Part shown: piece after piece, positions 17,929 through 47,660 of the stretch
How positions within the stretch are numbered: position 1 is the first letter of the stretch
How the letters are laid out: every line of letters starts with the position of its first letter
Source of the DNA: an uncultured Bacteroidales bacterium
Lineage (GTDB): Bacteria > Bacteroidota > Bacteroidia > Bacteroidales > JAKIYJ01
Length of the DNA: 64,000 bases
Assembly (NCBI GenBank): GCA_964504265.1
Contig: CAZDEU010000001.1
Location: 4,412 to 68,411, forward strand
Direction of reading: 5' to 3'
Notes under the pieces: generated by a model
Seen by the model: the letters and a program-made list of their open reading frames with translations, nothing else
The model's database searches: none
Told to the model about the DNA's origin: nothing
Position numbers and translations under genes: made by a program

Positions 17929-17982
17929 TTTAATTTCCCCTTTTTCTTTTTTTATTTTTATCCCTTAACCCTTTATATTTTT

Positions 17983-18011
17983 ATTATAACATATTATAAT
18001 AAAAATGTAAA
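17983..18011 (-). promoter_or_regulatory. sigma-70-type promoter, cassette A: TTTACA-17 nt-TATAAT with TGn extended -10
   Basis: -35 is the reverse complement of 18006-18011. -10 is the reverse complement of 17983-17988. TGT lies at 17989-17991. Confidence 0.7.
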
Positions 18012-18048
18012 TAGTTTTTATAAAATAATTTAAAATAAAAATAAAAAA

Positions 18049-18075
18049 GCATTGATAACCTTTTATTATCAATGC
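18049..18075. terminator. bidirectional intrinsic terminator, cassette A
   Basis: GCATTGATAA / TTATCAATGC, a 10-bp stem flanked by an A-run and a T-run. Lies just after the nrdG stop. Confidence 0.75.
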
Positions 18076-18095
18076 TTTTCACGGTAAAAATAATT

Positions 18096-18686
18096 TTAAA
18101 ATAAATCTAGTTCTGCTTGAAATTTAATATCTGGAAAGTTTTTTATTATCCAATTTTTATCCTCTACATTTAAACCTTTCCATAAAGTATTTCTAAATTG
18201 ATAATTTATTCCGGACCTGGAAATTATATCAATGCTCCTATATAGATTATCTATATTATTATAATGGAAATATTTTGAATAATTTTCAAATTTAGATTTT
18301 ATATCCATTGCTACAAAATCAATTAATTTATTATCAATAATATTTTTTAATAATTCTGGATTAGTGCCATTAGTGTCAAGTTTTATTTTTTTATTTGTCC
18401 GCTGTTTTAAATAATGTAATAAATATAATAAATCATTTTCTTGTAATGTTGGCTCACCACCACTTATTACAATTCCATTTGCTAAATTAGTTATAACATC
18501 ATAAACGGTATGAATTATTTGTTCTTTTGTGAATATGCCAAATTCTCGCATTGCTTTGCGGTTATGGCAATATTCACAGGTTAAATTGCAACCATTAAAA
18601 AATATTACTGATGATATATAACCTGGATAATCTATTAATGATGATTTTTGAAATCCAAACAATTTAATATTTTGAAAATTATTCAT
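18096..18686 (-). CDS. nrdG: anaerobic ribonucleotide reductase activating protein (radical SAM)
   Basis: CNLTCEYCHN (CxxxCxxC) near the N-terminus. About 196 aa, directly downstream of nrdD. Confidence 0.85.
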   Translation of the reverse strand: MNNFQNIKLFGFQKSSLIDYPGYISSVIFFNGCNLTCEYCHNRKAMREFGIFTKEQIIHTVYDVITNLANGIVISGGEPTLQENDLLYLLHYLKQRTNKKIKLDTNGTNPELLKNIIDNKLIDFVAMDIKSKFENYSKYFHYNNIDNLYRSIDIISRSGINYQFRNTLWKGLNVEDKNWIIKNFPDIKFQAELDLF

Positions 18687-18706
18687 TTATCAATTAGTCC
18701 TTTCAA

Positions 18707-18750
18707 GTTTAAATTATTTTATATAAATTTTTATATAAAATAATTTAAAC
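18707..18750. repeat. A/T palindrome P7 (type C)
   Basis: GTTTAAATTATTTTATATAAATTTTTATATAAAATAATTTAAAC, between nrdD and nrdG. Confidence 0.9.
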
Positions 18751-18761
18751 TATATAATAAA

Positions 18762-20711
18762 TTATTTCGTATTATCTTTTAACCATTTTAAATAAGAACC
18801 TGCACCTGATAATTTACTTATTATTTCACTTCCTTTAACTTTCATTAAACAAGGCAACTCATCAACATTATAATAACTTGCCAATGCTAAACCTTTATAT
18901 TCGTGAGTATCAAGTATTTTTACATTTTCATTTAGCTTTCCTGATAATTGTTTTTTAACTGTTTCGCATTTTTCGCAATTAGGTTTCTGAAAAAATAAAA
19001 TCTGTTCGCCGTTATTGAATTCAACATTTTCAAATTGCTGCATACTGAAATCAACTTTTGTTCTATCTTTTAATTCTGCTAATTTGGATTTTGTCCAACC
19101 TGAAATTTGACTAAAATACCCTGTTATTCTTGTTGTGTTATATATGTTATTAGAGCCGCATGACGGGCATATGTCATTTAAACCTTTAAATGTGTTATGA
19201 CAATCTTTACATACTGTCATATCAGGACTATCCGCTGTTTGAACTGCATTTGTATTTAATAATGTTGTTTTATATAATTCTTTTAATGCTTTTGGGTCTG
19301 GCTCTGTATCCCCAAACCAATTATGAATTATAGAACCTGCCTTTATCATTGAAGCAAATTTACTTTGTTTTTCTATTCTGGTTAATATATCAACATTTGC
19401 ATTATAAACTAAATGAACCGAATTAGTATAATATACTTCGCCTTTTTCTATATTACCGTTGACATAATGTTTTGCTTCTTTGAATTGTTGTAAATCTAAT
19501 AATGCTGCCCTTAAACTTAATCCTTCTGCTGGTGTTTCTTCGAGCATAACATTTAGATTATATTTATTTGCTAATTCATCCATTTTTAGTTTTATATATG
19601 CTATTATTTCTAATCCAAATTTTAAGGTTTCTTCTGTTTCATGTAAATTAGTTTTTGTATATTGTTTTACCAATTCATTTAATCCGATTATCCCTATTAA
19701 AAACTTTGCTTCATTCCTTCTTAAATAAGGTTTATTATCAAAGCCTTTTGTTAAAAAACCTAAACAACCTTTTTCACCTTTATCTAATAATTTACATATG
19801 TATTCATATTTCGTTTTATGTCCTTGCATACATAAATCAATTAATCTATCTATTTCACTATACATTTCTTTATGCGTTTTACATTTATAACCAATTCTTG
19901 GTAAATTTATTGTTATATTCTGCCATGCTGAAAATCGCATTTCCTCTGGCGTTTTTATTAATCTTTCTGTTTCTTCTTTTGTTAAATTTATTGACAATCT
20001 GCAGCATTGAGATATCTTAACATCTTCACCTCTGTCGTAAAGTATATATATTGAACCTCTTTTAGAATTTACTCTGCAAGCAAAATCTAATAGTTCATCA
20101 TCAAAACTATTTTTATTTATATGTAATAATATTTTTGGAAATGCGAAGTTTGCTTTATTTGCATCGCCTTTTTCGATTACTTCAAATATAGCTTTTAAAA
20201 ATAATCTCATTTCATTTTCATATTCGGAATAATTTAATCCTGTATATTTTCCACCTGCTCCTCTTGCTGGTGTATTTTTATAGTGGTCTGGAACTTTTAA
20301 ATACATATTGAAATCACTGAATACAACTTGGCCGCCTCGATTTCCGGCTAACTGTGCAAAGCTAAAAATCAAATGCTGTGCAACCTGTTTAATTTGATAA
20401 TATTCTAAATCTTTTAGTAGTGGTGCGAAAAACATATTAACACATTCAAACCCAATAGCGCCAGAAAATAAACCTTGTAAATAATTTGCAAAACATTGAA
20501 TATGATTAACTAATGTTTGAGCGTGTTTTGCGGGTTCACTATGACTAACATTTGGTAATTTTAAACCATATCTTTTTATATATTCAATAGAATTACCAGA
20601 ACAATTATGCGTATGTATATTATTGACTAATAAAGTATGTGATGATGTTGTAATATCATATACCTTATTAACTGTTTTAATTTTTTTTATTGATATTATT
20701 TTATTTAACAT
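18762..20711 (-). CDS. nrdD: NrdD C-terminal fragment: 36-aa intein C-piece + C-extein + C-terminal redoxin-like domain
   Basis: Starts MLNKIISIKKIKTVNKVYDITTSSHTLLVNNIHTHN|CSGNSIEY (intein block G HN|C). Glycyl-radical motif TRITGYF (Gly codon ~19119-19121). Zn ribbon CKDC...CPSCG. Terminal CEKC thioredoxin-fold-like segment. Confidence 0.85.
   Translation of the reverse strand: MLNKIISIKKIKTVNKVYDITTSSHTLLVNNIHTHNCSGNSIEYIKRYGLKLPNVSHSEPAKHAQTLVNHIQCFANYLQGLFSGAIGFECVNMFFAPLLKDLEYYQIKQVAQHLIFSFAQLAGNRGGQVVFSDFNMYLKVPDHYKNTPARGAGGKYTGLNYSEYENEMRLFLKAIFEVIEKGDANKANFAFPKILLHINKNSFDDELLDFACRVNSKRGSIYILYDRGEDVKISQCCRLSINLTKEETERLIKTPEEMRFSAWQNITINLPRIGYKCKTHKEMYSEIDRLIDLCMQGHKTKYEYICKLLDKGEKGCLGFLTKGFDNKPYLRRNEAKFLIGIIGLNELVKQYTKTNLHETEETLKFGLEIIAYIKLKMDELANKYNLNVMLEETPAEGLSLRAALLDLQQFKEAKHYVNGNIEKGEVYYTNSVHLVYNANVDILTRIEKQSKFASMIKAGSIIHNWFGDTEPDPKALKELYKTTLLNTNAVQTADSPDMTVCKDCHNTFKGLNDICPSCGSNNIYNTTRITGYFSQISGWTKSKLAELKDRTKVDFSMQQFENVEFNNGEQILFFQKPNCEKCETVKKQLSGKLNENVKILDTHEYKGLALASYYNVDELPCLMKVKGSEIISKLSGAGSYLKWLKDNTK
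18765..19040 (-). other. thioredoxin/glutaredoxin-like domain fused to the NrdD C-terminus
   Basis: EQILFFQKPNCEKCETVKKQL, with CxxC codons at 18966-18977. Lies downstream of the glycyl-radical motif. Confidence 0.5.
20604..20711 (-). other. split-intein C fragment (36 aa)
   Basis: VYDITT...LLVNNIHTHN followed by Cys+1. The length is typical of natural split-intein C pieces. Confidence 0.7.
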
Positions 20712-21591
20712 TTTTTATCCACTCCTGTATTTTATTTTTTAAATCAATATCAGATAAATTAAAATCTAAATCTGTTAAAAATAAATAATTAATAGATTTT
20801 TCTTTATATGCTTGTGCTAATTGCATATTCTCCTCAGCATTATGAAATCGACCACCTAAAATTTCAATTACAGCATGTTTATCTGAATATTTTGTTATTA
20901 TAAAATCAGGGTTTTTATGATATAATTTATTTTTAAAATTTATTGTAATCCAAAATTTAAAATCACCTGTAAATTTTACATTATCAATATTTAAGTCTAT
21001 TACACGCTGTTCCCAACTGTTTATTTTATATTTTATATGAGGATGTTGCCTATAATATTCATATTGGCATTCTGTTGAACAAAATTTTCTATCTTTATTT
21101 TTACCTAAAAACATTGGTAGGACGAACATTTCTTTTTTACATAATTTACATTTAAAAATTACAGCATTATTTTCAAAATATTTTTCAGTTTTTTCTTTTA
21201 TCGCTTTTCTAATTTTTATTAAGTTATTTTCATCTTTATATTTTTCTTTTTTTGTTTTTGACATGCTTAGTTTTGAGTCTTCTGTATGTTTTTTATCCTG
21301 CATTGGATTTTTATTTGTTTTGTAATATTCTTTTTTTATATCACTTAACTTTAATTTTCTATTTTTTGCTGTTTCTTCTGACATATTTTTTATTGGGTTA
21401 TTATTTTTCATTCTTTCTTTTCTTTTTATTACTTCTTCTGGACTATAAATTTCCTCCCATTTTTTACCTTTATTTGTTTTTCTATTTTTAAATGATTCCA
21501 TTATTTGTTTTCTTTTTATTTCAGCATATTCTTTTCCATAGATTTCTTCCCAAGTTTTACCTTTTGTTGATTTCGGCATAAAATAAATCAC
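20701..21591 (-). mobile_element. free-standing homing endonuclease gene inserted between the two intein halves
   Basis: NUMOD3-like repeats (KGKTWEEIYGKEYAEIKRK, KGKKWEEIYSPEEVIKRK, KKHTEDSKLSMSKTKK), zinc-finger CKLCKK...CSTEC, and C-terminal NPDFIITKYSDKHAVIEILGGRFH (Vsr/DUF559-like PD-(D/E)xK pattern). Overlaps both flanking ORFs. Confidence 0.55.
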
Positions 21592-22399
21592 CTACTTTTA
21601 AATCTTTTGTTTGTAATTCTATATAGTTATTTTCATCATTATATTTTAAACAAGGATGGTCTTCTGTAACAAATAACTTTTCGCCAGTTTCCAATTCGAT
21701 TTCATATATATCTTTTTTGTTATTTAGTTCAACTAAATTAATTAATTCAACATATCCTGTTTTATCTAATATTTGATATTCTTTAATATTTGTTGTTTTT
21801 AATCTTTCATATAATTCTTTAATTGTTATTATTTCTGTTTTATCATTTCTTTTTATTGTTATTAATGATAAATCACCATCAAAGGCGTAGGGTCGATTTG
21901 GGAAGTCCAAATCGTGTAAATGTATATCACCTTTTAAATGGGCTTCAGATATTTGTTTACTAAATATTTCTTTTAAAGCATATTGTTTTTGAATTTGTCC
22001 TGCTATTGCAAGGTTAATACTTTCAGGGCTAAAAGATGTATTTGAATTTTCTGAATTGTGTTCTTCTAATAGTTTTTTAACATCATAAGTTGGTAATGAT
22101 AATGAATTATATTTCAAATGGTCGTCGATTTTTTCTTGAGATAAAAAATAATTTATAATATTACGAATAAAACTTGTATTAATATTTAACAATTCATTTT
22201 TAAGTAAGAACTGCTCTGCTTTAACTGCTATTTTTTCGGCAATTACTTTATCTAACTCTATTTCTTTAACTAATGAGTTAACTATAAAATCTTTATTAAA
22301 AGATTCAAAACATTCTTCGCTATCTGACTGAACCATCATTTGAATATTAGTGCTGTTACCTGTTTTCTTATTTAATTTTTTAACTTTAATAGGTGTCAT
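21557..22399 (-). CDS. nrdD: NrdD N-terminal fragment: N-extein + 109-aa intein N-piece
   Basis: Likely start ATG 22399 (SD GGGGATG); the track start at 22453 is an over-extension. GDIHLHDLDFPNRPY then AFDGDLSLITIK...VTEDHP (intein blocks A/B) up to the stop. Confidence 0.8.
   Translation of the reverse strand: MTPIKVKKLNKKTGNSTNIQMMVQSDSEECFESFNKDFIVNSLVKEIELDKVIAEKIAVKAEQFLLKNELLNINTSFIRNIINYFLSQEKIDDHLKYNSLSLPTYDVKKLLEEHNSENSNTSFSPESINLAIAGQIQKQYALKEIFSKQISEAHLKGDIHLHDLDFPNRPYAFDGDLSLITIKRNDKTEIITIKELYERLKTTNIKEYQILDKTGYVELINLVELNNKKDIYEIELETGEKLFVTEDHPCLKYNDENNYIELQTKDLKVGDLFYAEINKR
21560..21886 (-). other. split-intein N fragment (109 aa) with Ala at position 1
   Basis: Codon GCC at 21884-21886 follows CGA CCC TAC (RPY). 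Block B TxxH appears as TEDH. Confidence 0.65.
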
Positions 22400-22495
22400 T
22401 ATAAAAAACATCCCCTTTAATAAAAAATAAAAAATTGGTATGGTTACCAGCATACCAATTTTAAAAGTTTAAATATATAATTAAAATATTTCTAA

Positions 22496-22701: not shown

Positions 22702-22745
22702 TTTTAAATTATTTTATAATTATTTTAGTATAAAATAAATTAAAC
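22702..22745. repeat. A/T palindrome P8 (type B variant)
   Basis: Loop reads ATTATTTTAG. Confidence 0.85.
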
Positions 22746-22747
22746 TT

Positions 22748-25498: not shown

Positions 25499-27058
25499 TT
25501 AAATTATTGATTTTTTATTATCTGTTATTGATAATTCTTTTATTAAATCTTCTACTTTTAGATTATTCTTTTTGCAATAATCTTCTATTGTTACCATCGA
25601 ATATCTTATCCCATTAATTATTTTAAATTCATCAGTTACTTTATACGGCGATACAGGCATTAATACCATTTCGCTTTCATAATCTGTAATAAATGTTGGA
25701 TTATATAATATTATTTGCTCACCATTAAATCTTGTATTTATATTTTTTTCGTAAAAGTTAATTGTTATTGTTTCCTGAAAGTCTTTTAATGTCTTAAAAT
25801 ATGACATATCAAATGTTGAAATGAACTCTTGATTATAACCTTTTATGTTATTTATCAAAACCAATTTATCATTTATATATAATTTATTATTTTCAACTTT
25901 AAATTCAACATATTCTGTCGGCTTCAATCCTTTATGATTTTTATTTTTTATCTGTGTATTTGATAATGCTTCTAAAAGTCTATTTTTATTTACTGTTATT
26001 TTATATGCTAATTTATTTTCTTCAGGCGTAACATTTTTTAATTGCTGTTTGTTTATTGGATTTTTCATTTCTACTGTTATTAATTTTTGATTGTATTTGC
26101 TATTGAAATCATCAGCAGAATAAAAACCGTCCGATAACTCGGATTTTATTTTATATGCTACTGCACCATTTGTAATATAAGCGAATTTATCTTCAACATT
26201 GAAGCCTTTATAATTCGGTGCTATTGGTTGTAATTTTAAACTATTATAAATATCTATTGCATTATTTTTTATTTTGCTTGTCGCTTTAATTTCATAAGCA
26301 TTATCTAATCTATTATAAAATGCTTCGTCATTATCTAAAAATAACATTGATTTTGCAAATGTTATGTCATTAGCTTCATATGCTCTTCCATTACGATAAA
26401 CTTTTGCATTTTTGCCATTATTGGCGCACATTGCAATTATTTTAAATTTATTATCTGATAATAGTATTGGTGATTTTGTAGCTTCTAAAGATAGTGTTAT
26501 ATCAGTTAAATATTTTATTGCAGTTTTTAAAATATTCACATTGAAAAATGTTACAAAGTAATCAACGCTTGAATCTTTAACTATTACTTTAGCATTTTTT
26601 ACAGGTATTTCATTTATATATAAAACATTTTCAACTACTTCAATTTTTATATATTCAATAGGTTTAATAGATTTTACAAATTGTTTTATTGTTTGTGGTC
26701 CTAACGATTTTATTACTTCTTCGCTTTCAAAAAATCCTTTTATGTTTTCAGTTTTAACTTTTTCCTGTGTTTGATTTAATATACTAGTTAAATCTTTTTT
26801 GTTAGTTTTAATTTCATAACATATATTTTCTGGAGTGGCGTGTTTAAATAATGATGCTGGAATATAATTATAACCATCTGCTATTTTATTTAAATTGTTA
26901 TCATATAATCCATCGAGCATTTCAGTTTTAACTGATAAACATATATGACCGTTACCAATATATGCAATATTATTTTCAACATTTGCACCGTCAAATGATT
27001 TGCCGCTTATACCATATTTTTCTGCATATTCTGTCAATGTTTTAATTATATTTTTCAT
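25499..27058 (-). CDS. hypothetical protein made of two homologous halves
   Basis: Internal duplication: KSFDGANVENNIAYIGNGHICLSVKTEMLDGLYD...PIEYIKIEVVENVLYINEIPV versus YKGFNVEDKFAYITNGAVAYKIKSELSDGFYS...PTEYVEFKVENNKLYINDKLV. Confidence 0.6.
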   Translation of the reverse strand: MKNIIKTLTEYAEKYGISGKSFDGANVENNIAYIGNGHICLSVKTEMLDGLYDNNLNKIADGYNYIPASLFKHATPENICYEIKTNKKDLTSILNQTQEKVKTENIKGFFESEEVIKSLGPQTIKQFVKSIKPIEYIKIEVVENVLYINEIPVKNAKVIVKDSSVDYFVTFFNVNILKTAIKYLTDITLSLEATKSPILLSDNKFKIIAMCANNGKNAKVYRNGRAYEANDITFAKSMLFLDNDEAFYNRLDNAYEIKATSKIKNNAIDIYNSLKLQPIAPNYKGFNVEDKFAYITNGAVAYKIKSELSDGFYSADDFNSKYNQKLITVEMKNPINKQQLKNVTPEENKLAYKITVNKNRLLEALSNTQIKNKNHKGLKPTEYVEFKVENNKLYINDKLVLINNIKGYNQEFISTFDMSYFKTLKDFQETITINFYEKNINTRFNGEQIILYNPTFITDYESEMVLMPVSPYKVTDEFKIINGIRYSMVTIEDYCKKNNLKVEDLIKELSITDNKKSII

Positions 27059-27083
27059 TTTAAAGTTCTCCTTATTTGATTTT

Positions 27084-27115
27084 CAGGTTTTTATTCAGAA
27101 CCTGTTAAACTGAAT
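27084..27115 (-). promoter_or_regulatory. pseudoknot-like leader element, copy 3
   Basis: CAGGTT 27084-89 pairs with AACCTG 27099-104. ATTCAG 27093-98 pairs with CTGAAT 27110-15. Confidence 0.6.
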
Positions 27116-27120
27116 TTATA

Positions 27121-27711
27121 TTATTTTACTTCTTTTACTAATACTCTGAAGTGTGCTTTATATATGTCACCTGCAGCTAATATTGTAGTTACTTTTACTC
27201 TTTTGTTTTCACATTGAACTGTGCCGTTTAAATTTCCGTCTTCTGCTAAATGTAAATTATTGACTGATATTATTTTACCACCTACTTTTTCTATTCTATT
27301 TATGAAGTCTAATCTTCTTTTATTTAATTCTTTATCTATCCAGCAATGTATCTCGCTTGCTGTAAATGCTTTACTTATTGAATTTAATACAAATTGTTTA
27401 TATTTCATATCTCTGAAAGAAAATATGAAATTATTGAAGTTAATTTTAAGAGGTTTATAAATATTAAATAACTCTGTGGCTTTAATTATGCGAGCATCAA
27501 ATATATTTATCGTATTTTTACTTCTATCTCTGATGATTCCTGATTCTACAAAGAATATTTCATCGTTATTCAAATTCTTTTCTTGTATATAATCGGCATA
27601 AGCAATTCTACTAGCATCCATTGATTCGTCTAATTCTTTAGCCCTTAACTGATTTTTATTTAATGTTGCTATTACCATTTCTTTTATATTTTCAAAAAAT
27701 TTAGTAAACAT
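27121..27711 (-). CDS. hypothetical protein, first gene of promoter cassette B
   Basis: Start moved to ATG 27711 (leader GGGGAAATTAAAATG is identical to cassette A). The track start at 27729 is a TTG. Confidence 0.5.
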   Translation of the reverse strand: MFTKFFENIKEMVIATLNKNQLRAKELDESMDASRIAYADYIQEKNLNNDEIFFVESGIIRDRSKNTINIFDARIIKATELFNIYKPLKINFNNFIFSFRDMKYKQFVLNSISKAFTASEIHCWIDKELNKRRLDFINRIEKVGGKIISVNNLHLAEDGNLNGTVQCENKRVKVTTILAAGDIYKAHFRVLVKEVK

Positions 27712-27766
27712 TTTAATTTCCCCTTTCAAATTTTTTATTTTTATTTATTTAACCCTTTATATTTTT

Positions 27767-27795
27767 ATTATAACATATTATAATAAAAATGTAAA
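27767..27795 (-). promoter_or_regulatory. sigma-70-type promoter, cassette B (identical core)
   Basis: -35 at 27790-27795, -10 at 27767-27772, 17-nt spacer. Confidence 0.7.
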
Positions 27796-27832
27796 TAGTT
27801 TTTATAAAATAATTTAAAATAAAAACAAAAAA

Positions 27833-27859
27833 GCATTGATAATGTAATATTATCAATGC
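27833..27859. terminator. bidirectional intrinsic terminator, cassette B
   Basis: GCATTGATAAT / ATTATCAATGC, an 11-bp stem flanked by A- and T-runs. Confidence 0.75.
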
Positions 27860-27881
27860 TTTTGACGATAAAAATAATTTA

Positions 27882-28064
27882 TTAAATAATTCTTGATTTT
27901 TTATTTTTGAAGGCTAAAAACATATTACCGTCAGTTTTATTTATATAAATTCTATTATTTATTCGTTTACTTCTTAATATCCCTTTTAATGTTAACTGAT
28001 ATAATTTGCTATAAATCAAACGATTTTCTCTAACAAAATCAATTAGTTTTATATAATCTTCCAT
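27882..28064 (-). CDS. small DNA-binding (excisionase/MerR-like HTH) protein, tentative
   Basis: 60 aa, basic. Pattern IKLIDFVRENRLIYSKLYQLTLKGIL. Confidence 0.3.
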   Translation of the reverse strand: MEDYIKLIDFVRENRLIYSKLYQLTLKGILRSKRINNRIYINKTDGNMFLAFKNKKSRII

Positions 28065-42271: not shown

Positions 42272-42295
42272 TGTTACTTGTTATCTTTAAACAAA

Positions 42296-42340: not shown

Positions 42341-42342
42341 CC

Positions 42343-43869
42343 TTAAATCGATTCTTTACCGATATTGAATCTTGCTTCCATTACATCATTGATTGCGGTT
42401 TTTAAACTTTCCTCATTTGTTTTCTTTATTATCTCTTCCATTTTTTCAAAGTCTCTATCTTTAAAAGCATCAATCATTTTCTCATATTCTTCTATTGATA
42501 CATTTTTTATAGATTCTTCAATTTGTTTCTGCAATTCTTTTTCCGCAGTAACGAAATCATTTAACTTTGCTATGTCGTATTTCTTATCATAATTTTTAGC
42601 GGTTTCAAATAGTTTATTTATATTAGTATCTGTCAAATGTAATATTTCGTTACTGTCATTTTTTGGTAAATTATATTTGTCCCTTACAAAGTTTAAATCT
42701 TTTTCGTTTTGTGGTGTCATATATCCCGATGTAGTAAGGGTTGCATATACATTTGATAATTTATCTAACTCGTCAACTTGAAGGCTGCTTGCTTTAAGTT
42801 TCGGGTATTTATCGACATTAGGGAAATTAATATCAACTAATCTTTTTATAACCTGGATATTAATATCTTCTAATAAATTATCTAAAAATCTTTTGAGGAT
42901 AACATAAAACAAATTAAACTGTTCCATACCTAAAGCATAAGAACCTACATTGGTATTTGTAAATCCTAAATTATCTGGCATCAGTAATCCTCTTGACATC
43001 ATTTTATCGCAGCGGTCTAATGCTTCACTATAACCTGCTGGTGCTGGAAATGTTATATTGTCTATTCTTACTTTACCATCAGGTAATTTAAAACCTGTTC
43101 CTTTAAGTAAATATTTCAATATTGCTTTTAAATCTTTTTCTTCATCTGCTGTTAATTGCCCTGTATAATATGCAATTAATAGCGGTGTGCCATATCTTTC
43201 AAGGTGCATAGCATAAAATTTCAAGGTAACATCTTTAATCCACCATGGCCTATATATCGCCCTTAAATCTGCATTACCATATAGATTGTCAAACTGTTTA
43301 TCAAATGTATGTATAGCAAATTTACTTGGTGGTAAATCTAAAGAATACATACCTTGACCTTGATATTGTTTTAAGTATGCTAAATTACCACAAGCATCGG
43401 TTTTAAAATCAAATCCGTGTGGTGGTCTTGTTTTTAAATCATCAACACCTATTAAACCTTTAAAATCTTTATGGTTATTTATATAAGCATACATTATTTC
43501 TGATACAGAATAACCATAATCTAAAGCTGAAAGCATTGACTCTAATCGTCTATTAAATGGAGTTTTAAGTCTATCAAATAAATTGTAAGTAATGAAATCT
43601 GCTATTTTAATATCAATTGGACTTTGTGAAGATGGCTCAACTAATATATTGTTAGATAGCATAATTGTCTTTTTTACAAGTAATGCTATTTTAACAACCT
43701 CATCATCTTTCATTTTATCATAAGTATATAAACCTTTTTTGACAATTAAATCATCTGGGTTATAAGGATTGATTGTTAATTGTGTAGGTAATATTGTATA
43801 TGACATTTCATTTAAAACATCACTGGCTTCAAGTTTTATTTTTTCAGGTTTAATATAATTTTTTGGCAT
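42343..43869 (-). CDS. portal protein (DUF935 / Mu gp29-like)
   Basis: 508 aa with ALDYGYSVSEIMY and HLERYGTPLLIAYYTG patterns. Sits upstream of the MuF gene, as in Mu-like head modules. Confidence 0.75.
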   Translation of the reverse strand: MPKNYIKPEKIKLEASDVLNEMSYTILPTQLTINPYNPDDLIVKKGLYTYDKMKDDEVVKIALLVKKTIMLSNNILVEPSSQSPIDIKIADFITYNLFDRLKTPFNRRLESMLSALDYGYSVSEIMYAYINNHKDFKGLIGVDDLKTRPPHGFDFKTDACGNLAYLKQYQGQGMYSLDLPPSKFAIHTFDKQFDNLYGNADLRAIYRPWWIKDVTLKFYAMHLERYGTPLLIAYYTGQLTADEEKDLKAILKYLLKGTGFKLPDGKVRIDNITFPAPAGYSEALDRCDKMMSRGLLMPDNLGFTNTNVGSYALGMEQFNLFYVILKRFLDNLLEDINIQVIKRLVDINFPNVDKYPKLKASSLQVDELDKLSNVYATLTTSGYMTPQNEKDLNFVRDKYNLPKNDSNEILHLTDTNINKLFETAKNYDKKYDIAKLNDFVTAEKELQKQIEESIKNVSIEEYEKMIDAFKDRDFEKMEEIIKKTNEESLKTAINDVMEARFNIGKESI

Positions 43870-43996
43870 AATTGTTTATCTCCTTTATGTTAAAGTTTTA
43901 ATTTAAAATTACAAAATTTTAAATTAAAAAAATCTAATTTTCAATCATTGAAAGATATATAAAAGGTAAAAAACATAAACATATTAAACAATAAAA

Positions 43997-44033
43997 AATA
44001 CTATTATAAGACAATAAATCTTATAATGGTATT
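43997..44033. terminator. hairpin (same family)
   Basis: AATACTATTATAAGA / TCTTATAATGGTATT followed by TTTT. Confidence 0.55.
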
Positions 44034-44077
44034 TTTAAATTATTTTATATAAAAATAATTATAAAATAATTTAAATC
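44033..44077. repeat. A/T palindrome P14 (type A)
   Basis: Overlaps the stop codon of 44071..44448. Confidence 0.85.
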
Positions 44078-44448
44078 ATTGCTGGAATTATGTTACTATT
44101 ATTATCTACAGTAAAAAATAACGGTAATTGAAATTGTATTCTCCAATGTGTTGTATTTTTAAAATCATTATTTAAGTAATCCGTTAATAATGGCCTTATT
44201 AAATCGTATTTTTTAAAATTTTCAATTACTATATTATGTAAAATATTTGCTCGTTTCATATCATTATTATTTATTGCTTTTATAATTTCGTCCATTAAAT
44301 ATTTTTGTAAATCAATTATCTTTTCTAAATAATCAAATATTTCAGTTACTTGTTGTCTGTTAAAAAATATTTGCTGTAATCGTTTAATAAACCAATATGC
44401 GGTAATAATAAAAAATATTAATAATATCGTGGCAATTATATCAGCCAT
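44071..44448 (-). CDS. hypothetical N-terminally membrane-anchored protein
   Basis: MADIIATILLIFFIITAYWFI is a TM helix. 125 aa. Confidence 0.4.
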   Translation of the reverse strand: MADIIATILLIFFIITAYWFIKRLQQIFFNRQQVTEIFDYLEKIIDLQKYLMDEIIKAINNNDMKRANILHNIVIENFKKYDLIRPLLTDYLNNDFKNTTHWRIQFQLPLFFTVDNNSNIIPAMI

Positions 44449-44470
44449 TTTAAATTTCCTTCCTTTAATT

Positions 44471-44539
44471 TAATTTTTTATATATAATAAAAAATAAATT
44501 TTTTTAATTAAAACTTATTGAAGTTTTAATTTAAAAAAC
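44471..44539. repeat. 69-nt direct repeat DR1
   Basis: TAATTTTTTATATATAATAAAAAATAAATTTTTTTAATTAAAACTTATTGAAGTTTTAATTTAAAAAAC. Confidence 0.85.
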
Positions 44540-44656
44540 GATAATTGCTATATTAGGAGTAATCCTATTGTAGCAATTTTTTATTATAAGGTATTTCAAT
44601 AAACCTAAAAATTTTATTTTTTAATTAAGATTATTAAATCTTAATTAAAAAACAAT

Positions 44657-44687
44657 AACAGGTTACGACAATAAATCGTAACCTGTT
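44657..44687. terminator. 12-bp GC-containing hairpin with flanking A- and T-runs
   Basis: AACAGGTTACGA / TCGTAACCTGTT. Confidence 0.6.
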
Positions 44688-44755
44688 AATTTTTTATATA
44701 TAGGTAAAAATAAATTTTTTTAATTAAAACTTATTGAAGTTTTAATTTAAAAAAC
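44687..44755. repeat. 69-nt direct repeat DR2
   Basis: Same as DR1 except ATAGGTAAAAAT in place of ATAATAAAAAAT. Confidence 0.85.
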
Positions 44756-44832
44756 ATAAACATATTAAACAATAAAAAAATACCACTATAAGATTATTTC
44801 TTATAATGGTATTTTTTAAATTTCATATTAGA

Positions 44833-44878
44833 GTTTTTAAATTATTTTATATAAAAATTTATATAAAATAAATTAAAC
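44833..44878. repeat. A/T palindrome P15 (type C-like)
   Basis: AAATTATTTTATATAAAAATTTATATAAAATAAATT. Confidence 0.85.
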
Positions 44879-44880
44879 TT

Positions 44881-45429
44881 TTATTTAATATTTGGTTTCT
44901 TAAACTTCTTAATTTCTTTTGGTTCGACATTTGCGATTTTGTTATCTGGTGGAATTGTTTTCTTTATTTTACCTGTATGTTCGATATGCTCGGTTGGAAT
45001 ATCAAACATCGGATTATCCGATAATTTGATTTTTCCATCTGATATTGTTGTGGTTGACATTTCATTTATTCTTAATTTCTGGTCTAACTCTTTTGCTTTA
45101 ACTTTTTTAAGTTTATGTAAACAGTCGGAGCATAAACCTGCAAGTGTGTCTGTGTAAACCTGGTCGACGATTTTACCGCATTTAGTGCAAGTATATTTAT
45201 TCTCGTTAAACCGTTGGAGATTATTATTCTTAATAAATTCCATTATATAATGTTTTGGTTTACCTGTTAATTCTGATATTAATGTAACATTGAAATTGTT
45301 ATCAAATATCTGTTTAATAAAATGTCGTCTAACTTCCTTATTTTCTTTATCTTTTTCCATTGAACATTGAACGCATAAACCATTGCTTGTTAAATTGTCT
45401 AAATCTCTTTTACATCTTCCACATAACAT
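44881..45429 (-). CDS. double zinc-ribbon / HTH protein
   Basis: CGRC...CVQC, then the HTH-like VTLISELTGKPKHYIMEFIKN, then CTKCG...CSDC. Confidence 0.45.
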   Translation of the reverse strand: MLCGRCKRDLDNLTSNGLCVQCSMEKDKENKEVRRHFIKQIFDNNFNVTLISELTGKPKHYIMEFIKNNNLQRFNENKYTCTKCGKIVDQVYTDTLAGLCSDCLHKLKKVKAKELDQKLRINEMSTTTISDGKIKLSDNPMFDIPTEHIEHTGKIKKTIPPDNKIANVEPKEIKKFKKPNIK

Positions 45430-45464: not shown

Positions 45465-45500
45465 TTTAAATTATTTTATATAATTTAAAATATTAAAACG
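45465..45500. repeat. A/T palindrome P16 (degenerate)
   Basis: Left arm TTTAAATTATTTTATATA is intact. The right arm is diverged. Confidence 0.5.
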
Positions 45501-45514: not shown

Positions 45515-46204
45515 TTATATACCGTTTGGTATATGTGATTTATTTATTTCATTTTTATTATTTTTATAGTCATTAACTCTATCTATGTTATCAATATAAT
45601 ATTTTACATTAGCACAGTCAAAAATTGTGTCACCTTTATTATCTCTTAAGTATATATTTATTTCATCTTTATATTCAAGTAATTTATATACAACATCTTT
45701 TGAATTGGCATATATTGCATACATTAATGCAGTCCTATGACTATTATCTGTTACATTAATATCAATACCTGCTGATATGTAATTTATAATTGTGTCAATG
45801 TCATTTTCAACAGCAGCAAAGAACCAATCAATATAATCATTTACTTTTATTCTTTCTGATATTTCGTTTATTTGTTTTGAGTGTTTATTTGGTATTTCTT
45901 TTTCATTATTTTCTTCTTTATATTCTTTTTTAATAGTATCAAGAATTGCATATATTATTTCAGGTTTATCAATCAAAATATTTATATCTACTTTATTGAT
46001 TAGAGTTTTTAATTCATTTTTTAGTATGATAATATTTTCTTGGGTCTTTTCTTCTTTAAATAAATTTTGTATTGCTCCTTCCATTGTGTATCCATAACCT
46101 ATTACTTCTGTTGAGTTTAAATCATAAGCCTTATATCTATATAATGGTCCCGAATCTGTTGATTCTACTTTTATTGTTTTAGTTAAATTTTGTTCATTAT
46201 TCAT
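45515..46204 (-). CDS. ankyrin-repeat protein
   Basis: GIDINVTDNSHRTALMYAIYANSKDVVYKLLEY...RDNKGDTIFDCA is a canonical ANK pattern. Confidence 0.65.
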   Translation of the reverse strand: MNNEQNLTKTIKVESTDSGPLYRYKAYDLNSTEVIGYGYTMEGAIQNLFKEEKTQENIIILKNELKTLINKVDINILIDKPEIIYAILDTIKKEYKEENNEKEIPNKHSKQINEISERIKVNDYIDWFFAAVENDIDTIINYISAGIDINVTDNSHRTALMYAIYANSKDVVYKLLEYKDEINIYLRDNKGDTIFDCANVKYYIDNIDRVNDYKNNKNEINKSHIPNGI

Positions 46205-46248: not shown

Positions 46249-46280
46249 GTTTAAATTATTTTATATAAAATAATTTAAAC
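46249..46280. repeat. A/T palindrome P17 (32-nt perfect palindrome, no loop)
   Basis: GTTTAAATTATTTTATATAAAATAATTTAAAC equals its own reverse complement. Confidence 0.9.
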
Positions 46281-46897: not shown

Positions 46898-47143
46898 TTA
46901 TTTTAAAAATTCTCTTTCTTCTTCGCTGCCTGGTCTAAAGAAATTATATGAAGGTTTTGCTGTTTGTTTTAGTTTATCAAAATTTTCTTTATTAATCTCG
47001 TCCTCAGATATTTCAAAGCCATTGCCATCTATTTCAGTTATATAATATTTATTGATTTTCTTGCCCATATAATTCTGATATTGAAATCTGTATATAAATT
47101 TACCTGACTCAACATAATTAATGTTATCTATACCTCTTTCCAT
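46898..47143 (-). CDS. hypothetical protein
   Basis: 81 aa with SD AAGGAGGAG. Preceded by pseudoknot-like leader copy 4. Confidence 0.45.
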   Translation of the reverse strand: MERGIDNINYVESGKFIYRFQYQNYMGKKINKYYITEIDGNGFEISEDEINKENFDKLKQTAKPSYNFFRPGSEEEREFLK

Positions 47144-47162
47144 TTTAACTCCTCCTTAAAAT

Positions 47163-47193
47163 CAGGTTTTTGATTGGAACCTGTTAAACCAAT
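47163..47193 (-). promoter_or_regulatory. pseudoknot-like leader element, copy 4
   Basis: CAGGTT 47163-68 pairs with AACCTG 47178-83. ATTGG 47173-77 pairs with CCAAT 47189-93. Confidence 0.6.
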
Positions 47194-47199
47194 TTGGAA

Positions 47200-47478
47200 T
47201 TACATTAAATACATTCGCCTTGTTGTATTGAGGTTCTTTAAAGCGTAGTTAATAATAACTTGTTCCATTGAAACTGCGGTTTCCAGGTAGCAAGCCCAGA
47301 AGTCCAACATTTTTTCTTCTGAGTTGTTTAACATTGTGTCCTTAACCTCCTCGATTTCGTTTAATAAATCTTCAGGGGCAATGTGTGCGTTGGTTGCAAG
47401 ACTTTTGATATTGGTTTTACAGAAATTGACTGCTGTGTGTATTGATTGTTTGTAGTATTCGTAATTGAAATTGCTCAT
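47200..47478 (-). CDS. hypothetical acidic protein, first gene of promoter cassette C
   Basis: 92 aa. Leader AAAAGGAGAAATTAAAATG. Confidence 0.45.
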   Translation of the reverse strand: MSNFNYEYYKQSIHTAVNFCKTNIKSLATNAHIAPEDLLNEIEEVKDTMLNNSEEKMLDFWACYLETAVSMEQVIINYALKNLNTTRRMYLM

Positions 47479-47535
47479 TTTAATTTCTCCTTTTCTTTTT
47501 TGTTTTTATTTTATTTCCTAACTTTTTATATTTTT

Positions 47536-47564
47536 ATTATAACATATTATAATAAAAATGTAAA
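47536..47564 (-). promoter_or_regulatory. sigma-70-type promoter, cassette C (identical core)
   Basis: -35 at 47559-47564, -10 at 47536-47541, 17-nt spacer. Confidence 0.7.
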
Positions 47565-47601
47565 TAGTTTTTATAAAATAATTTAAAATAAAAATAAAAA
47601 A

Positions 47602-47628
47602 GCATTGATAACCTTTTATTATCAATGC
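47602..47628. terminator. bidirectional intrinsic terminator, cassette C
   Basis: GCATTGATAA / TTATCAATGC flanked by A- and T-runs. Confidence 0.75.
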
Positions 47629-47660
47629 TTTTGATACTAAAAATATTTTTAAAATAATTA

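What the first reader, a model, noticed from the sequence alone, without database searches (positions are those of the whole stretch)
17971..47632. Three near-identical ~110-nt cassettes pairing a terminator with a consensus promoter, defining putative immediate-early units
**Seen.** Regions 17971-18080, 27755-27863 and 47522-47632 are almost identical. Read on the minus strand, each contains in order:
- a 10-11-bp GC-containing hairpin (GCATTGATAA/TTATCAATGC) followed by a T-run;
- one arm of the A/T palindrome;
- TTTACA, a 17-nt spacer, then TGT-TATAAT (near-consensus -35, extended -10);
- a ~48-nt leader ending GG(G/A)GAAATTAAAATG.

The first genes (68, 196 and 92 aa; 17722..17928, 27121..27711, 47200..47478) are unrelated to one another. 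Each is followed by a pseudoknot-like element and a second gene.

**Established.** Promoters matching host sigma-70/SigA consensus typically drive phage early genes.

**Inference.** These are three insulated host-RNAP-dependent entry points. Their first genes are candidates for host-takeover or anti-defence proteins. The repeated cassettes could also mediate recombination or module shuffling.
Basis: partly seen in the sequence, partly recalled or inferred. Interest (0 to 1): 0.55.

Follow-up and report, generated by a model that had tools for sequence, protein, structure and literature searches.

The report
Repeated terminator–promoter cassettes in a phage
Three nearly identical intergenic cassettes in this AT-rich phage each combine a transcription terminator with a very strong host-type promoter driving a block of orphan genes; this resembles the "PeSL" cassettes already described in T4-like phages, so it is a good example of a known design, not a new one.

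Summary
Three roughly 160-nt minus-strand intergenic repeats (17943-18104, 27727-27888, 47496-47657) share a 70-nt run identical in all three copies.

Each cassette contains, in order:
- a 14-16-bp intrinsic terminator;
- a UP-element-like A/T block, which is the "palindrome arm";
- TTTACA-17-TGtTATAAT, and these are the three best sigma-70/SigA matches in the window;
- a standard leader and Shine-Dalgarno sequence.

Homologous cassettes occur in two other uncultured phage lineages. There the hairpin is kept by compensatory changes, the promoter block is about 90% conserved while proteins are 40-75% identical, and cassettes sit at synteny breakpoints with different orphan payloads. The first genes are true ORFans.

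The best reading is composite terminator/early-promoter modules that insulate and restart host-RNA-polymerase transcription and serve as recombination linkers. They work like PeSL cassettes of T4-type phages, here in a low-GC siphovirus-like phage. Early timing and gene function remain untested.

The "pseudoknot-like element" is a real H-type pseudoknot, which I had not expected. It shows covariation in both stems, has 4 copies here and 9 more in other phage contigs, and has no Rfam match. It is probably the most novel item. The 42-nt palindromes and a Mor-family activator gene hint at the middle/late control layer.

The parts
17943..18104 (-). Cassette 1, whole repeated intergenic unit (from the stop codon of nrdG-like gene 18096-18686 to the ATG of the 68-aa gene)
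   Evidence: (family D5)
18043..18081 (-). Cassette 1 intrinsic terminator: A-tract, 14-16-bp stem, 5-7-nt loop, T-run
18016..18034 (-). Cassette 1 A/T block. It equals one 16-nt arm of the 42-nt palindrome family (18034-18019) and a UP-element-like 17-mer (18032-18016)
17983..18011 (-). Cassette 1 promoter TTTACA-17-TGtTATAAT. Predicted start is near 17976. The 28-nt inverted repeat TTTTTATTATAA-TATG-TTATAATAAAAA (18005-17978) overlaps the spacer and the -10
17722..17928 (-). First gene of unit 1, 68 aa, ORFan
17677..17716 (-). H-type pseudoknot between the first and second gene of unit 1
17293..17661 (-). Second gene of unit 1, 122 aa. Homologues in L002 and L008 also follow a cassette or a pseudoknot
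16918..16957 (-). Fourth pseudoknot copy, inside unit 1 just after palindrome 17013-16972
15856..15886 (-). AT-rich intrinsic terminator (14-bp stem, T8) that closes unit 1 before the prohead protease gene
27727..27888 (-). Cassette 2, whole repeated unit
27828..27864 (-). Cassette 2 terminator hairpin
27767..27818 (-). Cassette 2 UP-like arm (27818-27803) and promoter TTTACA-17-TGtTATAAT (27795-27767)
27121..27711 (-). First gene of unit 2, 196 aa, ORFan (only a self hit in 5.8 billion proteins)
27078..27117 (-). Pseudoknot between the first and second gene of unit 2
25499..27058 (-). Second gene of unit 2, 519 aa, no family match
47496..47657 (-). Cassette 3, whole repeated unit
47597..47633 (-). 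Cassette 3 terminator hairpin
47536..47587 (-). Cassette 3 UP-like arm (47587-47572) and promoter TTTACA-17-TGtTATAAT (47564-47536)
47200..47478 (-). First gene of unit 3, 92 aa. It has one true relative in 1.84 billion representatives
47157..47196 (-). Pseudoknot between the first and second gene of unit 3
46898..47143 (-). Second gene of unit 3, 81 aa, no family match
44781..44811 (-). Terminator closing unit 3. A second terminator lies at 44688-44656

Best explanation
Each cassette is a composite intergenic regulatory module, and I read its action in five steps.

1. The A-tract/hairpin/T-tract terminator stops any transcript coming from the gene upstream. Because it is symmetric, it would also stop antisense transcription.
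2. Immediately downstream lies a full-strength promoter for the host's primary-sigma RNA polymerase: a UP-like A/T block, TTTACA, a 17-bp spacer and an extended -10 TGtTATAAT. It restarts transcription without needing a phage factor, so it should fire as soon as the DNA enters the cell.
3. A standardised ~50-nt leader with a GGGG/GGAG Shine-Dalgarno sequence delivers the first ORF.
4. The three units so defined are bounded downstream by further terminators. They carry lineage-specific orphan genes, and unit 2 also carries nucleotide-metabolism genes.
5. The ~160-nt cassettes are kept nearly identical within a genome. They therefore also serve as patches of homology where gene blocks are swapped, inserted or deleted. 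This is why related phages have the same cassettes at different backbone positions with different payloads.

Shown here: the sequence architecture, its conservation, the compensatory changes, the synteny breaks and the ORFan status. Inferred: promoter and terminator activity, early timing, and recombination as the mechanism of shuffling.
For: **Architecture.**
- Architecture and identity.
- Terminator: strong hairpins followed by T-runs. All 14 stem pairs are kept in the three window copies and in the L034 homologue, with two double compensatory changes (G-C to U-A, A-U to C-G), while the loop varies.
- Promoter: the top three sigma-70 scores in 64 kb on either strand, against 0.17 expected by shuffling.
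- UP-like match of 13/14 at the canonical distance; only 10 such sites occur on the whole minus strand (consensus from PMC2412878).

**Conservation.**
- Homologous cassettes are found in L002, L004 (two copies) and L005, and a third lineage in L034.
- The ~64-nt UP-to--10 block is about 90% identical, while shared proteins are only 37-77% identical.

**Shuffling.**
- Cassettes flank the nrdD-nrdG block in both the window and L004, but with different payload genes.
- The 122-aa payload gene follows a cassette at a different backbone slot in L002.
- The 92-aa gene is first in its unit here but second in L034.

**Payload and closure.**
- Payload ORFans.
- Units are closed by terminators.
- Independent assemblies break at the repeat.

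**Precedent.** PeSL cassettes have experimentally shown promoter and terminator activity and recombination (PMC2839356; PMC4122927).
Against: - There are no expression data, so timing is inferred from promoter type only.
- The host is unknown. No relative was found in GenBank phages or in GTDB genomes, so its promoter consensus is assumed, not known.
- In a 24% G+C genome, sigma-70-like and UP-like matches are common at lower stringency: 129 promoter-like hits against 130 expected in 14 kb, and 138 UP matches of 12/14 per strand. Only the top scores, the repetition and the cross-phage conservation carry weight.
- The promoter spacer is conserved far more than a plain promoter needs. It contains a 28-nt inverted repeat, and the UP-like block is identical to the arm of a genome-wide palindrome. 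A phage regulator may therefore also act here, and the promoters may not be simply constitutive.
- In the L002/L004/L005 lineage the cassette hairpin has decayed, and a separate terminator lies upstream.
Confidence: 0.75

Rival explanations
1. The cassette promoters are regulated by a phage protein and are not free-running early promoters. A phage DNA-binding protein would recognise the 16-nt arm upstream of the -35, and/or the 28-nt inverted repeat over the -10, and switch the promoters on (middle class) or off (early shut-off). Candidates are the Mor-family activator at 48249-48596 and the small HTH-like protein at 27882-28064.
For: - The arm in the cassette is identical to the arms of 17 full 42-nt palindromes spread through the genome.
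- In the related lineage, the block at the same position of the cassette (TTTAAAATATTTTT) matches the core of that phage's own, different palindrome. The 12-mer TTAAAATATTTT occurs 5-7 times per related contig and once in the window. Cassette element and palindrome therefore change together.
- A Mor-family gene is present: Pfam Mor scores 24.7 bits against a cut-off of 24.9, and phrog_836 'late transcriptional activator' scores 1e-5. It is conserved in L002.
- Mor/C activators bind dyad elements just upstream of or over the -35 (PMC4390567, PMC2582627).
- The spacer is conserved across three lineages, 14-16 of 17 positions.
Against: - A promoter with near-consensus -35, extended -10, 17-bp spacer and UP-like element should not need an activator. 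Mor/C-dependent promoters typically lack a -35.
- The arm is centred near -50.5, not -43.5.
- The A/T block is by itself a good UP element, which may fully explain it.
- The Mor match is just below Pfam's threshold.
- The inverted repeat over the -10 is only 10/12 symmetric in the related lineage, with no compensatory change.
Confidence: 0.15
2. The repeats are primarily selfish or recombinational DNA: linker sequences or miniature mobile elements that spread gene cassettes. Their resemblance to promoter and terminator would then be incidental to AT-rich sequence.
For: - Near-perfect identity within a genome and lower identity between genomes points to concerted evolution.
- The repeats sit at synteny breakpoints.
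- Promoter-like sequences are frequent in this composition.
Against: - The repeat always fills exactly one intergenic space, in one orientation, co-directional with the genes.
- The hairpin is kept by compensatory changes and followed by a T-run.
- The -35, the -10 and the 17-bp spacing are kept in three lineages, while L034 changes TTTACA to TTGACT, that is, towards consensus.
- No terminal inverted repeats or target duplications are seen.
Confidence: 0.06
3. The repeats are a replication origin, a packaging site or an assembly artefact.
For: Repeats and AT-rich palindromes are typical of origins, and repeats can arise from mis-assembly.
Against: - The three dispersed copies each have unique flanks.
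- The same cassette-gene junction is recovered in an independent Logan contig, which stops at the repeat as a de Bruijn assembler should.
- Homologous cassettes with the same internal order occur in other phages.
- No iteron-like arrays lie within the cassette.
Confidence: 0.03

Closest known systems
PeSL (promoter-early stem-loop) regulatory cassettes of T4-type myoviruses (Arbiol et al. 2010, PMC2839356; Comeau et al. 2014, PMC4122927)
   Same: [quoted passage not shown]
- It comprises an AT-rich upstream region, a sigma-70-consensus early promoter, a terminator stem-loop and a Shine-Dalgarno sequence.
- It is associated with ORFans and variable regions, including nrdD.
- It is located at insertion, deletion and replacement breakpoints between related phages.
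   Different: - The host phage is a low-GC siphovirus-like phage (tape-measure protein, HK97-type capsid), probably of an anaerobic bacterium that uses Shine-Dalgarno sequences, not a T4-like myovirus.
- There is no sequence homology to PeSLs.
- The stem-loop is an AT-rich canonical terminator placed upstream of the promoter, not a G4...C4 stem within or around it.
- Only three copies lie in 64 kb, and they are nearly identical to one another.
- The A/T block doubles as the arm of a separate genome-wide palindrome.
- Units continue with a conserved pseudoknot.
- Promoter, terminator and mini-circle activities were measured for PeSLs and are untested here.
Phage 'morons' (a gene with its own promoter and terminator inserted between phage genes; my recollection of Juhala/Hendrix, and discussed in PMC2839356)
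   Same: Autonomous transcription units, bounded by promoter and terminator, are inserted into otherwise conserved gene order. Here they sit even between the MuF/portal block and the protease/capsid block.
   Different: Morons do not share conserved flanking sequences with each other. Here the flanks are a repeated cassette, and the units hold several genes.
Clusters of strong host-polymerase early promoters in lytic phages (for example T7 A1-A3 and T5 early promoters; from my own knowledge)
   Same: These are near-consensus promoters with A/T-rich upstream regions that the unmodified host polymerase uses at the start of infection.
   Different: Those promoters are clustered at the genome end that enters first, and they are not paired with a repeated terminator. 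Here they are dispersed at about 10- and 20-kb spacing, each with its own terminator.
Small H-type pseudoknot cis-regulatory RNAs (preQ1-I, SAM-II type riboswitches; the T4 gene 32 operator). This applies to the pseudoknot that follows each first gene.
   Same: About 35 nt long, with two short stems and short conserved U-rich and A-rich loops, placed 8-25 nt upstream of a Shine-Dalgarno sequence.
   Different: - No Rfam family matches, even at E up to 10.
- The Shine-Dalgarno sequence is not part of the fold.
- Some copies lie before a terminator or a promoter, not before a gene.
- No ligand or protein partner is known.

Membership tests
PeSL-type composite promoter/terminator cassette | Contains a promoter matching the host primary-sigma consensus | tested here: met
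   TTTACA-17-TGtTATAAT scores 11/12 plus TG. These are the three best scores in the window, against 0.17 expected.
PeSL-type composite promoter/terminator cassette | Contains a stable stem-loop able to terminate or attenuate upstream transcription | tested here: met
   The 14-16-bp stems have dG of -16 to -18 kcal/mol and are followed by T-runs. Two compensatory changes occur in L034. Activity was not measured.
PeSL-type composite promoter/terminator cassette | [quoted passage not shown] | tested here: met
   A UP-like match of 13/14 lies 4 nt upstream of the -35. The repeat boundaries coincide with the stop codon and the ATG.
PeSL-type composite promoter/terminator cassette | Repeated in the genome with ~100-bp conservation | tested here: met
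   There are three copies, 134-148/162 identical, with a 70-nt run identical in all. At least four copies occur in the related lineage.
PeSL-type composite promoter/terminator cassette | Associated with ORFans and variable regions, and with indel or replacement breakpoints between related phages | tested here: met
   ORFan payloads. Cassettes sit at different backbone slots or carry different payloads in L002, L004 and L034.
PeSL-type composite promoter/terminator cassette | Occurs in T4-type myoviruses, with sequence relatedness to described PeSLs | tested here: not met
   The phage has a tape-measure protein, a PHROG-29 capsid, a MuF-type protein and a portal like those of Bacillus and Staphylococcus siphoviruses. 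The stem lacks the G4/C4 motif. This is therefore an analogue, not a homologue.
PeSL-type composite promoter/terminator cassette | Measured promoter and terminator activity; recombination between copies giving mini-circles | not testable with these tools
   Needs reporter assays and inverse PCR on infected cells.
Intrinsic (Rho-independent) terminator | G+C-containing hairpin directly followed by a U-tract on the transcribed strand | tested here: met
   There are three G-C pairs in the stem, and the T6 run starts at the stem end.
UP element (alpha-CTD binding site) | Match to AAAWWTWTTTTNNNAAA located about -57 to -41 | tested here: inconclusive
   The match is 13/14 at a gap of 4 nt from the -35, in the window and in the related lineage. 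However, the genome is 75% A+T, with 138 matches of 12/14 per strand, and alpha binding is untested.
preQ1-I or other Rfam pseudoknot riboswitch (for the pseudoknot element) | Match to the family covariance model | tested here: not met
   There are no hits at gathering score in the window. None overlaps the two copies in 16850-18150 at E up to 10.
H-type RNA pseudoknot (for the pseudoknot element) | Two stems in 5'S1-S2-3'S1-3'S2 order, supported by covariation | tested here: met
   In 11 copies, 94% of cells are paired against 75% in shuffles. The covariation score is 0.59 against 0.18 (0/500). Slid registers pair at most 59%. Five pairs show 2-4 pair types. Two further copies were found independently in L034 at 52 and 37 bits.
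Mor/C family transcription activator (for ORF 48249-48596) | Match to Pfam PF08765 at or above its gathering score | tested here: inconclusive
   The score is 24.7 bits against a cut-off of 24.9. phrog_836 'late transcriptional activator' scores 1.1e-5. No PDB sequence match was found.

The most novel reading that the evidence does not exclude
The cassettes may be only the front end of a previously undescribed modular early-gene system: [terminator-UP-promoter] - ORFan - pseudoknot - ORFan - pseudoknot, and so on.

In this reading, the ~35-nt H-type pseudoknot ([NNNG]-UUUAR-[NNGGUU]-[CNNN]-N(1-3)-AAA-[AACCNN]) is a new class of structured RNA. It is found in several unrelated phage lineages of 22-45% G+C. 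It would act in cis as the boundary or control element between genes, for example as an exonuclease block, a protein- or ligand-controlled translational switch, or a 3'-end stabiliser.

In addition, the UP-like arm of the cassette would be an operator shared with the 42-nt palindromes, through which a Mor-family activator couples early shut-off to middle/late activation.
Probability: 0.3. Interest if true: 0.65.

Novelty: new member of a known kind. Interest (0 to 1): 0.4.

Why it matters
**For annotation.** The cassettes give three confident transcription-unit starts and boundaries in an otherwise unannotatable uncultured phage. They also mark about a dozen orphan genes as the ones most likely to act first on the host. 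Those genes are the practical shortlist for takeover or anti-defence screens.

**For phage evolution.** This extends the PeSL idea, in which repeated promoter/terminator linkers both insulate and shuffle accessory genes. It carries the idea from T4-like myoviruses of Gram-negative hosts to a very different low-GC, siphovirus-like lineage. That suggests the design arises convergently.

**Chance of something new.** This lies in the attached pseudoknot motif and in the co-varying palindrome/cassette element, not in the cassettes themselves.

Tried and rejected
**Hypotheses dropped.**
- N4-like hairpin promoters read by a giant virion RNA polymerase. I suspected this because of the 3343-aa ORF. 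Pfam shows Mu-F plus ankyrin repeats and no polymerase, and the hairpin is followed by a T-run like a terminator.
- A phage sigma factor in the related contig L005 (184 aa). No Pfam support.
- A preQ1 riboswitch as the identity of the pseudoknot. This was tempting because the phage encodes FolE/QueD/QueE/QueC. It was rejected because Rfam gives no hit and the topology differs: the loop pairs with upstream sequence, not downstream.
- Frameshift or read-through stimulation by the pseudoknot. The distance from the stop codon varies from 6 to 16 nt, and one copy has no nearby upstream ORF.

**Searches that found nothing.**
- GenBank phages by DNA. Protein searches gave only distant hits of at most 34% identity.
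- IMG/VR exact scans for the window cassette and for the palindrome.
- GTDB genomes, by portal protein and by promoter pattern.
- The host therefore remains unknown.

**Attempts that failed.**
- I tried to read the 105-kb source contig beyond the window. Look-ups returned only short Logan contigs or nothing. The total number of cassettes in the genome is therefore unknown.

**A correction to my own analysis.**
- My first terminator scan required at least 3 G-C pairs. It wrongly suggested that unit 1 reads into the head genes. A relaxed scan found the AT-rich terminator at 15886-15856.

Full report
**What the window is.**
The window is 21-36% G+C (about 24% over most of it), and essentially all long ORFs lie on the minus strand. 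Profile searches identify these genes:
- a tape-measure protein (3148-8493);
- a minor tail protein, a major head protein (13097-14101) and a prohead protease (14537-15778);
- an NrdD-like anaerobic ribonucleotide reductase (18762-20711), with a radical-SAM NrdG-like activase (18096-18686) downstream;
- a dUTPase-like protein (24350-25006);
- a 3343-aa Mu-F plus ankyrin-repeat protein (31363-41394);
- a portal protein (42343-43869);
- a family-A DNA polymerase (52140-54239);
- a 7-deazaguanine (FolE/QueD/QueE/QueC plus transglycosylase-like) gene set.

It is therefore a siphovirus-like phage of an anaerobic, low-GC host that uses Shine-Dalgarno sequences. It has no close relative in GenBank phages or in GTDB genomes. 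The exact proteins are on record in a 105-kb NCBI contig and in short Logan contigs from runs SRR11845627-29.

**The observation.**
Read on the minus strand, the three regions are as described.
- The repeat is about 162 nt (17943-18104, 27727-27888, 47496-47657). Pairwise identity is 134-148/162, and one 70-nt run is identical in all three.
- It starts at the stop codon of the upstream gene and ends at the ATG of the downstream gene.
- Independent Logan assemblies end exactly at the edge of the repeat (L033) or within the 42-nt palindromes (L001, L030, L031). This is what de Bruijn assemblers do at true repeats.

**Anatomy of the cassette.**
1. Terminator.
   - AAAAGCATTGATAA(T), a 5-7-nt loop, (A)TTATCAATGCTTTT, then TT(A/G)TTTTTATTTT.
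   - The stem is 14-16 bp, and dG is -16 to -18 kcal/mol.
   - Folds of the cassettes are 5.8-6.9 SD more stable than shuffles.
   - The A-tract/T-tract symmetry makes it potentially bidirectional.
2. A/T block.
   - TTTAAATTATTTTATA is identical to one arm of a 42-nt palindrome family.
   - Read with the following A-run, it matches the UP-element consensus AAAWWTWTTTTNNNAAA (quoted in PMC2412878) at 13 of 14 specified positions, 4 nt upstream of the -35.
   - Only 10 positions on the whole minus strand reach that score.
3. Promoter.
   - TTTACA, a 17-nt spacer and TGtTATAAT give the three best sigma-70-type scores on either strand. Shuffles give 0.17 such sites.
   - At lower stringency, promoter-like matches are no more frequent than chance in this composition (129 against 130). 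Only the top scores and their repetition count.
4. Inverted repeat. The spacer and -10 form a perfect 28-nt inverted repeat, TTTTTATTATAA-TATG-TTATAATAAAAA (direct reading).
5. Leader. It is about 48-51 nt and ends AAAGG(G/A)GAAATTAAAATG.

**Transcription units.**
- Unit 3 (promoter 47564-47536) runs through five ORFs of 92, 81, 138, 229 (ankyrin) and 182 aa. It ends at terminators 44811-44781 and 44688-44656, ahead of the portal region.
- Unit 2 (promoter 27795-27767) contains the following, and ends at the cassette-1 terminator:
  - the 196-aa and 519-aa ORFs;
  - a separate promoter/terminator pair around a structured non-coding stretch;
  - the dUTPase-like gene and several small ORFs;
  - a terminator at 22463-22430;
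  - the nrdD/nrdG block.
- Unit 1 (promoter 18011-17983) runs through ORFs of 68, 122, 64, 48/54 and 171 aa. It ends at an AT-rich terminator at 15886-15856, just before the prohead protease.

The roughly 12 kb between 27864 and 15856 therefore forms two self-contained units. They lie between the portal/Mu-F block (plus an accessory sugar-metabolism cluster) on one side and the protease/capsid/tail block on the other.

**Payload.**
- The three first genes have no similarity to each other and no PHROG or Pfam family.
- The 196-aa and 68-aa proteins hit only themselves among 5.8 billion proteins.
- The 92-aa protein has one true relative among 1.84 billion representatives.

**Comparative evidence.**
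A degenerate promoter pattern recovered contigs of a related phage from one metagenome: L002/L003, L004 with two copies, L005, L006 and L007. The relative of the 92-aa protein led to a third lineage, L034.

1. Conservation.
   - The block from the UP-like element to just past the -10 is about 90% identical between the window and the L002/L004/L005 lineage. Shared proteins are only 37-77% identical.
   - In L034 the -35 is TTGACT, the 17-nt spacing is kept, and 14 of 17 spacer positions are conserved.
2. The hairpin.
   - In L034 it differs at four positions that form two compensatory pairs (G-C to U-A, A-U to C-G). All 14 pairs hold in all four sequences, and the loops differ.
   - In the L002 lineage the hairpin has decayed to the motif CAAAAGTATTGAT. 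A separate terminator lies upstream in three of four copies. The fourth abuts a divergent gene.
3. Copies within a genome are more alike than copies between genomes, which indicates concerted evolution.
4. Position and payload.
   - In both the window and L004, cassettes flank the nrdD-nrdG block, but the genes behind them differ. The dUTPase-like gene is upstream of the cassette in L004 and downstream of it here.
   - In L002 a cassette sits between the homologues of 50916-51338 and 49650-50366, where the window has none. There it is followed by the homologue of the window's 122-aa unit-1 gene, which lies 30 kb away in the window.
   - Conversely, the window's cassette 3 sits after the homologue of L002 4034-4597, where L002 has an unrelated 592-aa gene.
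   - In L034 the 92-aa gene is second in its unit, behind an unrelated 118-aa gene.

Cassettes thus mark the places where gene content differs, and payload genes travel with them.

**Mechanism.**
The terminator insulates the unit from upstream transcription. The UP/-35/extended -10 promoter recruits unmodified host polymerase. The repeats double as homology patches for modular exchange.

Activity, timing and recombination are inferred. The architecture, conservation, compensatory changes and synteny breaks are shown.

The main open point is whether a phage regulator also acts on the cassette.
- The cassette's A/T block is identical to the palindrome arm.
- In the related lineage, the corresponding block (TTTAAAATATTTTT) matches the core of that phage's own, different palindrome (TTTTATTAAAATATTTTAATAAAA). 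The two elements therefore co-vary.
- A small ORF (48249-48596), conserved in L002, matches the Mor activator family. The match is just under Pfam's threshold, and it also matches a PHROG of late transcriptional activators.
- Mor and C bind dyad elements at or upstream of the -35 of promoters that lack a -35 (PMC4390567, PMC2582627).
- I rate a regulated-promoter reading at about 0.15, because these promoters look self-sufficient.

**Comparison with what is known.**
The closest described system is the PeSL of T4-type phages.
- PeSLs are repeated ~100-bp intergenic motifs with an AT-rich region, a sigma-70 early promoter and a terminator stem-loop.
- They are enriched next to ORFans, and also next to nrdD.
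- Promoter and terminator activity have been shown, and recombination between copies shuffles genes and produces mini-circles (PMC2839356; PMC4122927).

All structural and distributional criteria are met here. Taxonomic scope and sequence relatedness are not, so this is an analogue in a different phage group. I file it as a new member of a known kind.

**The pseudoknot.**
The element after each first gene occurs four times in the window, against 0 expected. The fourth copy (16957-16918) follows a palindrome inside unit 1.
- The two sequence variants already show two compensatory pairs in stem 1 (UCAG/CUGA against UUGG/CCAA).
- L008 carries a 75%-identical homologue of the 122-aa gene. It has two more copies with compensatory changes in stem 2.
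- A pattern scan of IMG/VR gave 19 hits. The five distinct hits whose stem 1 is complementary are all intergenic and just 3' of a stop codon. Of the hits with non-complementary stem 1, the three whose context I examined (L013, L014, L022) all lie inside ORFs.
- On 11 copies, 94% of cells pair against 75% in shuffles. The covariation score is 0.59 against 0.18 (0/500), and shifted registers pair at most 59%. The two outer stem-2 pairs, which played no part in selection, are 100% paired with three pair types each.
- Caveat: I selected the five IMG/VR members for stem-1 complementarity.
- A covariance model scores the members at 45-56 bits and the chance hits at 31 bits or less. It then found two new copies in L034, at 52 and 37 bits, a contig reached through a protein and not through the motif.
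- Rfam 15 has no match.
- Contexts vary: 8-25 nt before a Shine-Dalgarno sequence (window, L008, L024, L027, L034); after a capsid gene (L024) or a tail-fibre-like gene (L018); before a terminator (L019, L020); or before a consensus promoter (L034).
- Its function is unknown. A structural role at cistron boundaries (exonuclease block or 3' stabiliser) or a protein- or ligand-dependent switch are the candidates.
- Large catalogues of unnamed phage RNA candidates exist (PMC10690425). I could not check whether this motif is among them.

**Verdict.**
The finding is real and well read. It is an instance of a known regulatory design in a new phage group, and I score its interest at 0.4. The attached pseudoknot family, and the co-variation of the cassette element with the palindromes, are the parts that could turn out to be new.

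Noticed in passing
window, 17 full copies: 2578-2619, 10586-10627, 12980-13021, 15925-15966, 16972-17013, 18708-18749, 22703-22744, 24189-24230, 30326-30367, 41397-41438, 42054-42095, 42297-42338, 44034-44075, 44836-44877, 48212-48253, 52096-52137, 61666-61707; partial copies near 9195-9236, 41715-41730, 45465-45480, 46250-46279: This is a 42-nt all-A/T palindrome family (16-nt arms TTTAAWTTATTTTATA, 10-nt centre).
- All copies are intergenic, and in about 10 cases the palindrome ends 17-27 nt before an ATG.
- The asymmetric centre occurs in both orientations about equally (7 against 7).
- Several copies follow strong terminators, for example after the capsid gene, and so may carry activator-dependent promoters.
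- Related phages have palindromes at the same positions with a different sequence (TTTTATTAAAATATTTTAATAAAA in L002/L004/L005; GGTTTAAATAATTTTATAAT... in L008).
- Function is undetermined. It could be an operator or promoter for the Mor-like activator, or an RNA hairpin.
   Followed up: partly
window 16918-16957, 17677-17716, 27078-27117, 47157-47196 (minus); L008 270-309 and 557-596; L034 719-758 and 1056-1096; L018, L019/L028, L020, L024, L027: This is a conserved ~35-nt H-type pseudoknot with covariation in both stems and no Rfam match. It is present in several unrelated phage contigs of 22-45% G+C, always intergenic and just 3' of a stop codon. It is probably an undescribed phage RNA motif.
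   Followed up: yes
window 48249-48596 (minus): This 115-aa ORF matches the Mor transcription-activator family (24.7 bits against a cut-off of 24.9) and PHROG 836 'late transcriptional activator'. It is conserved in L002 (58% identity). It lies two genes upstream of cassette 3 and is a candidate regulator of the palindromes.
   Followed up: partly
window 25115-25437 (minus): The 490-nt gap between the 519-aa gene and the dUTPase-like gene holds its own TTGACA-17-TACAAT promoter (25437-25409). It also holds a comparatively G+C-rich ~290-nt stretch that folds 5.2 SD better than shuffles, and a terminator (25152-25120). Rfam gives no hit at E up to 1. This is a candidate phage non-coding RNA.
   Followed up: partly
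window 54496-60402 (minus): This is a gene set for 7-deazaguanine synthesis and insertion.
- QueC-like (55152-55823).
- Transglycosylase-like (58074-58889, PHROG 'queuine tRNA-ribosyltransferase').
- GTP cyclohydrolase I (58895-59515).
- Radical-SAM QueE-like (59440-60027).
- PTPS/QueD (60040-60402).
- Also an aldo-keto reductase/ferredoxin fusion and a second radical-SAM/SPASM protein.

The phage DNA is probably modified.
   Followed up: no
window 18762-22453 (minus); L004 1932-4718: The NrdD homologue is split. Its N-terminal part is at 21557-22453 and its C-terminal part at 18762-20711, with an unassigned 296-aa ORF (20701-21591) between them. In the related contig L004 it is one 928-aa ORF with an insert that looks like an intein. 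An intervening mobile element (intron, intein or homing endonuclease) is likely.
   Followed up: no
window 31363-41394 (minus); also 45515-46204: The giant 3343-aa protein has an N-terminal Mu-F head-morphogenesis domain and multiple ankyrin repeats. A second, small ankyrin-repeat protein lies in unit 3. Ankyrin repeats are unusual in phages, so this may be an ejected effector.
   Followed up: no
window 41395-42345, 43870-44090, 44440-44900 (minus): These are long non-coding stretches around the portal gene, packed with repeats.
- A family of terminator hairpins, (A)ATACCATTATAAGA...TCTTATAATGGTAT(T), at 44811-44781, 44031-43999, 42271-42235 and 41681-41645. Three of the four lie directly after a 42-nt palindrome (44811, 44031, 42271).
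- A 29-30-nt palindrome, TTAATTTAAAATTTTG(T)AATTTTAAATTAA, just upstream of both the portal gene (43927-43898) and the Mu-F gene (41472-41444).
- A 70-nt direct repeat (44470-44539 and 44686-44755).
- A cassette-like remnant, CAAAAGTATTGAT (41937-41925).

The promoter-then-terminator order suggests that late genes may be controlled by antitermination.
   Followed up: no
window 27882-28064 (minus); L004 7753-7956: This 60-aa ORF lies immediately upstream of cassette 2 and is 74% identical to its L004 counterpart. By eye it resembles excisionase/HTH_17-type DNA-binding proteins. No significant Pfam hit was found.
   Followed up: no
L034 1120-1160: In the third lineage, the second pseudoknot is followed not by a gene but by a perfect TTGACA-17-TATAAT promoter without the cassette hairpin. 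The pseudoknot can therefore occupy the place that the terminator has in the cassettes.
   Followed up: no
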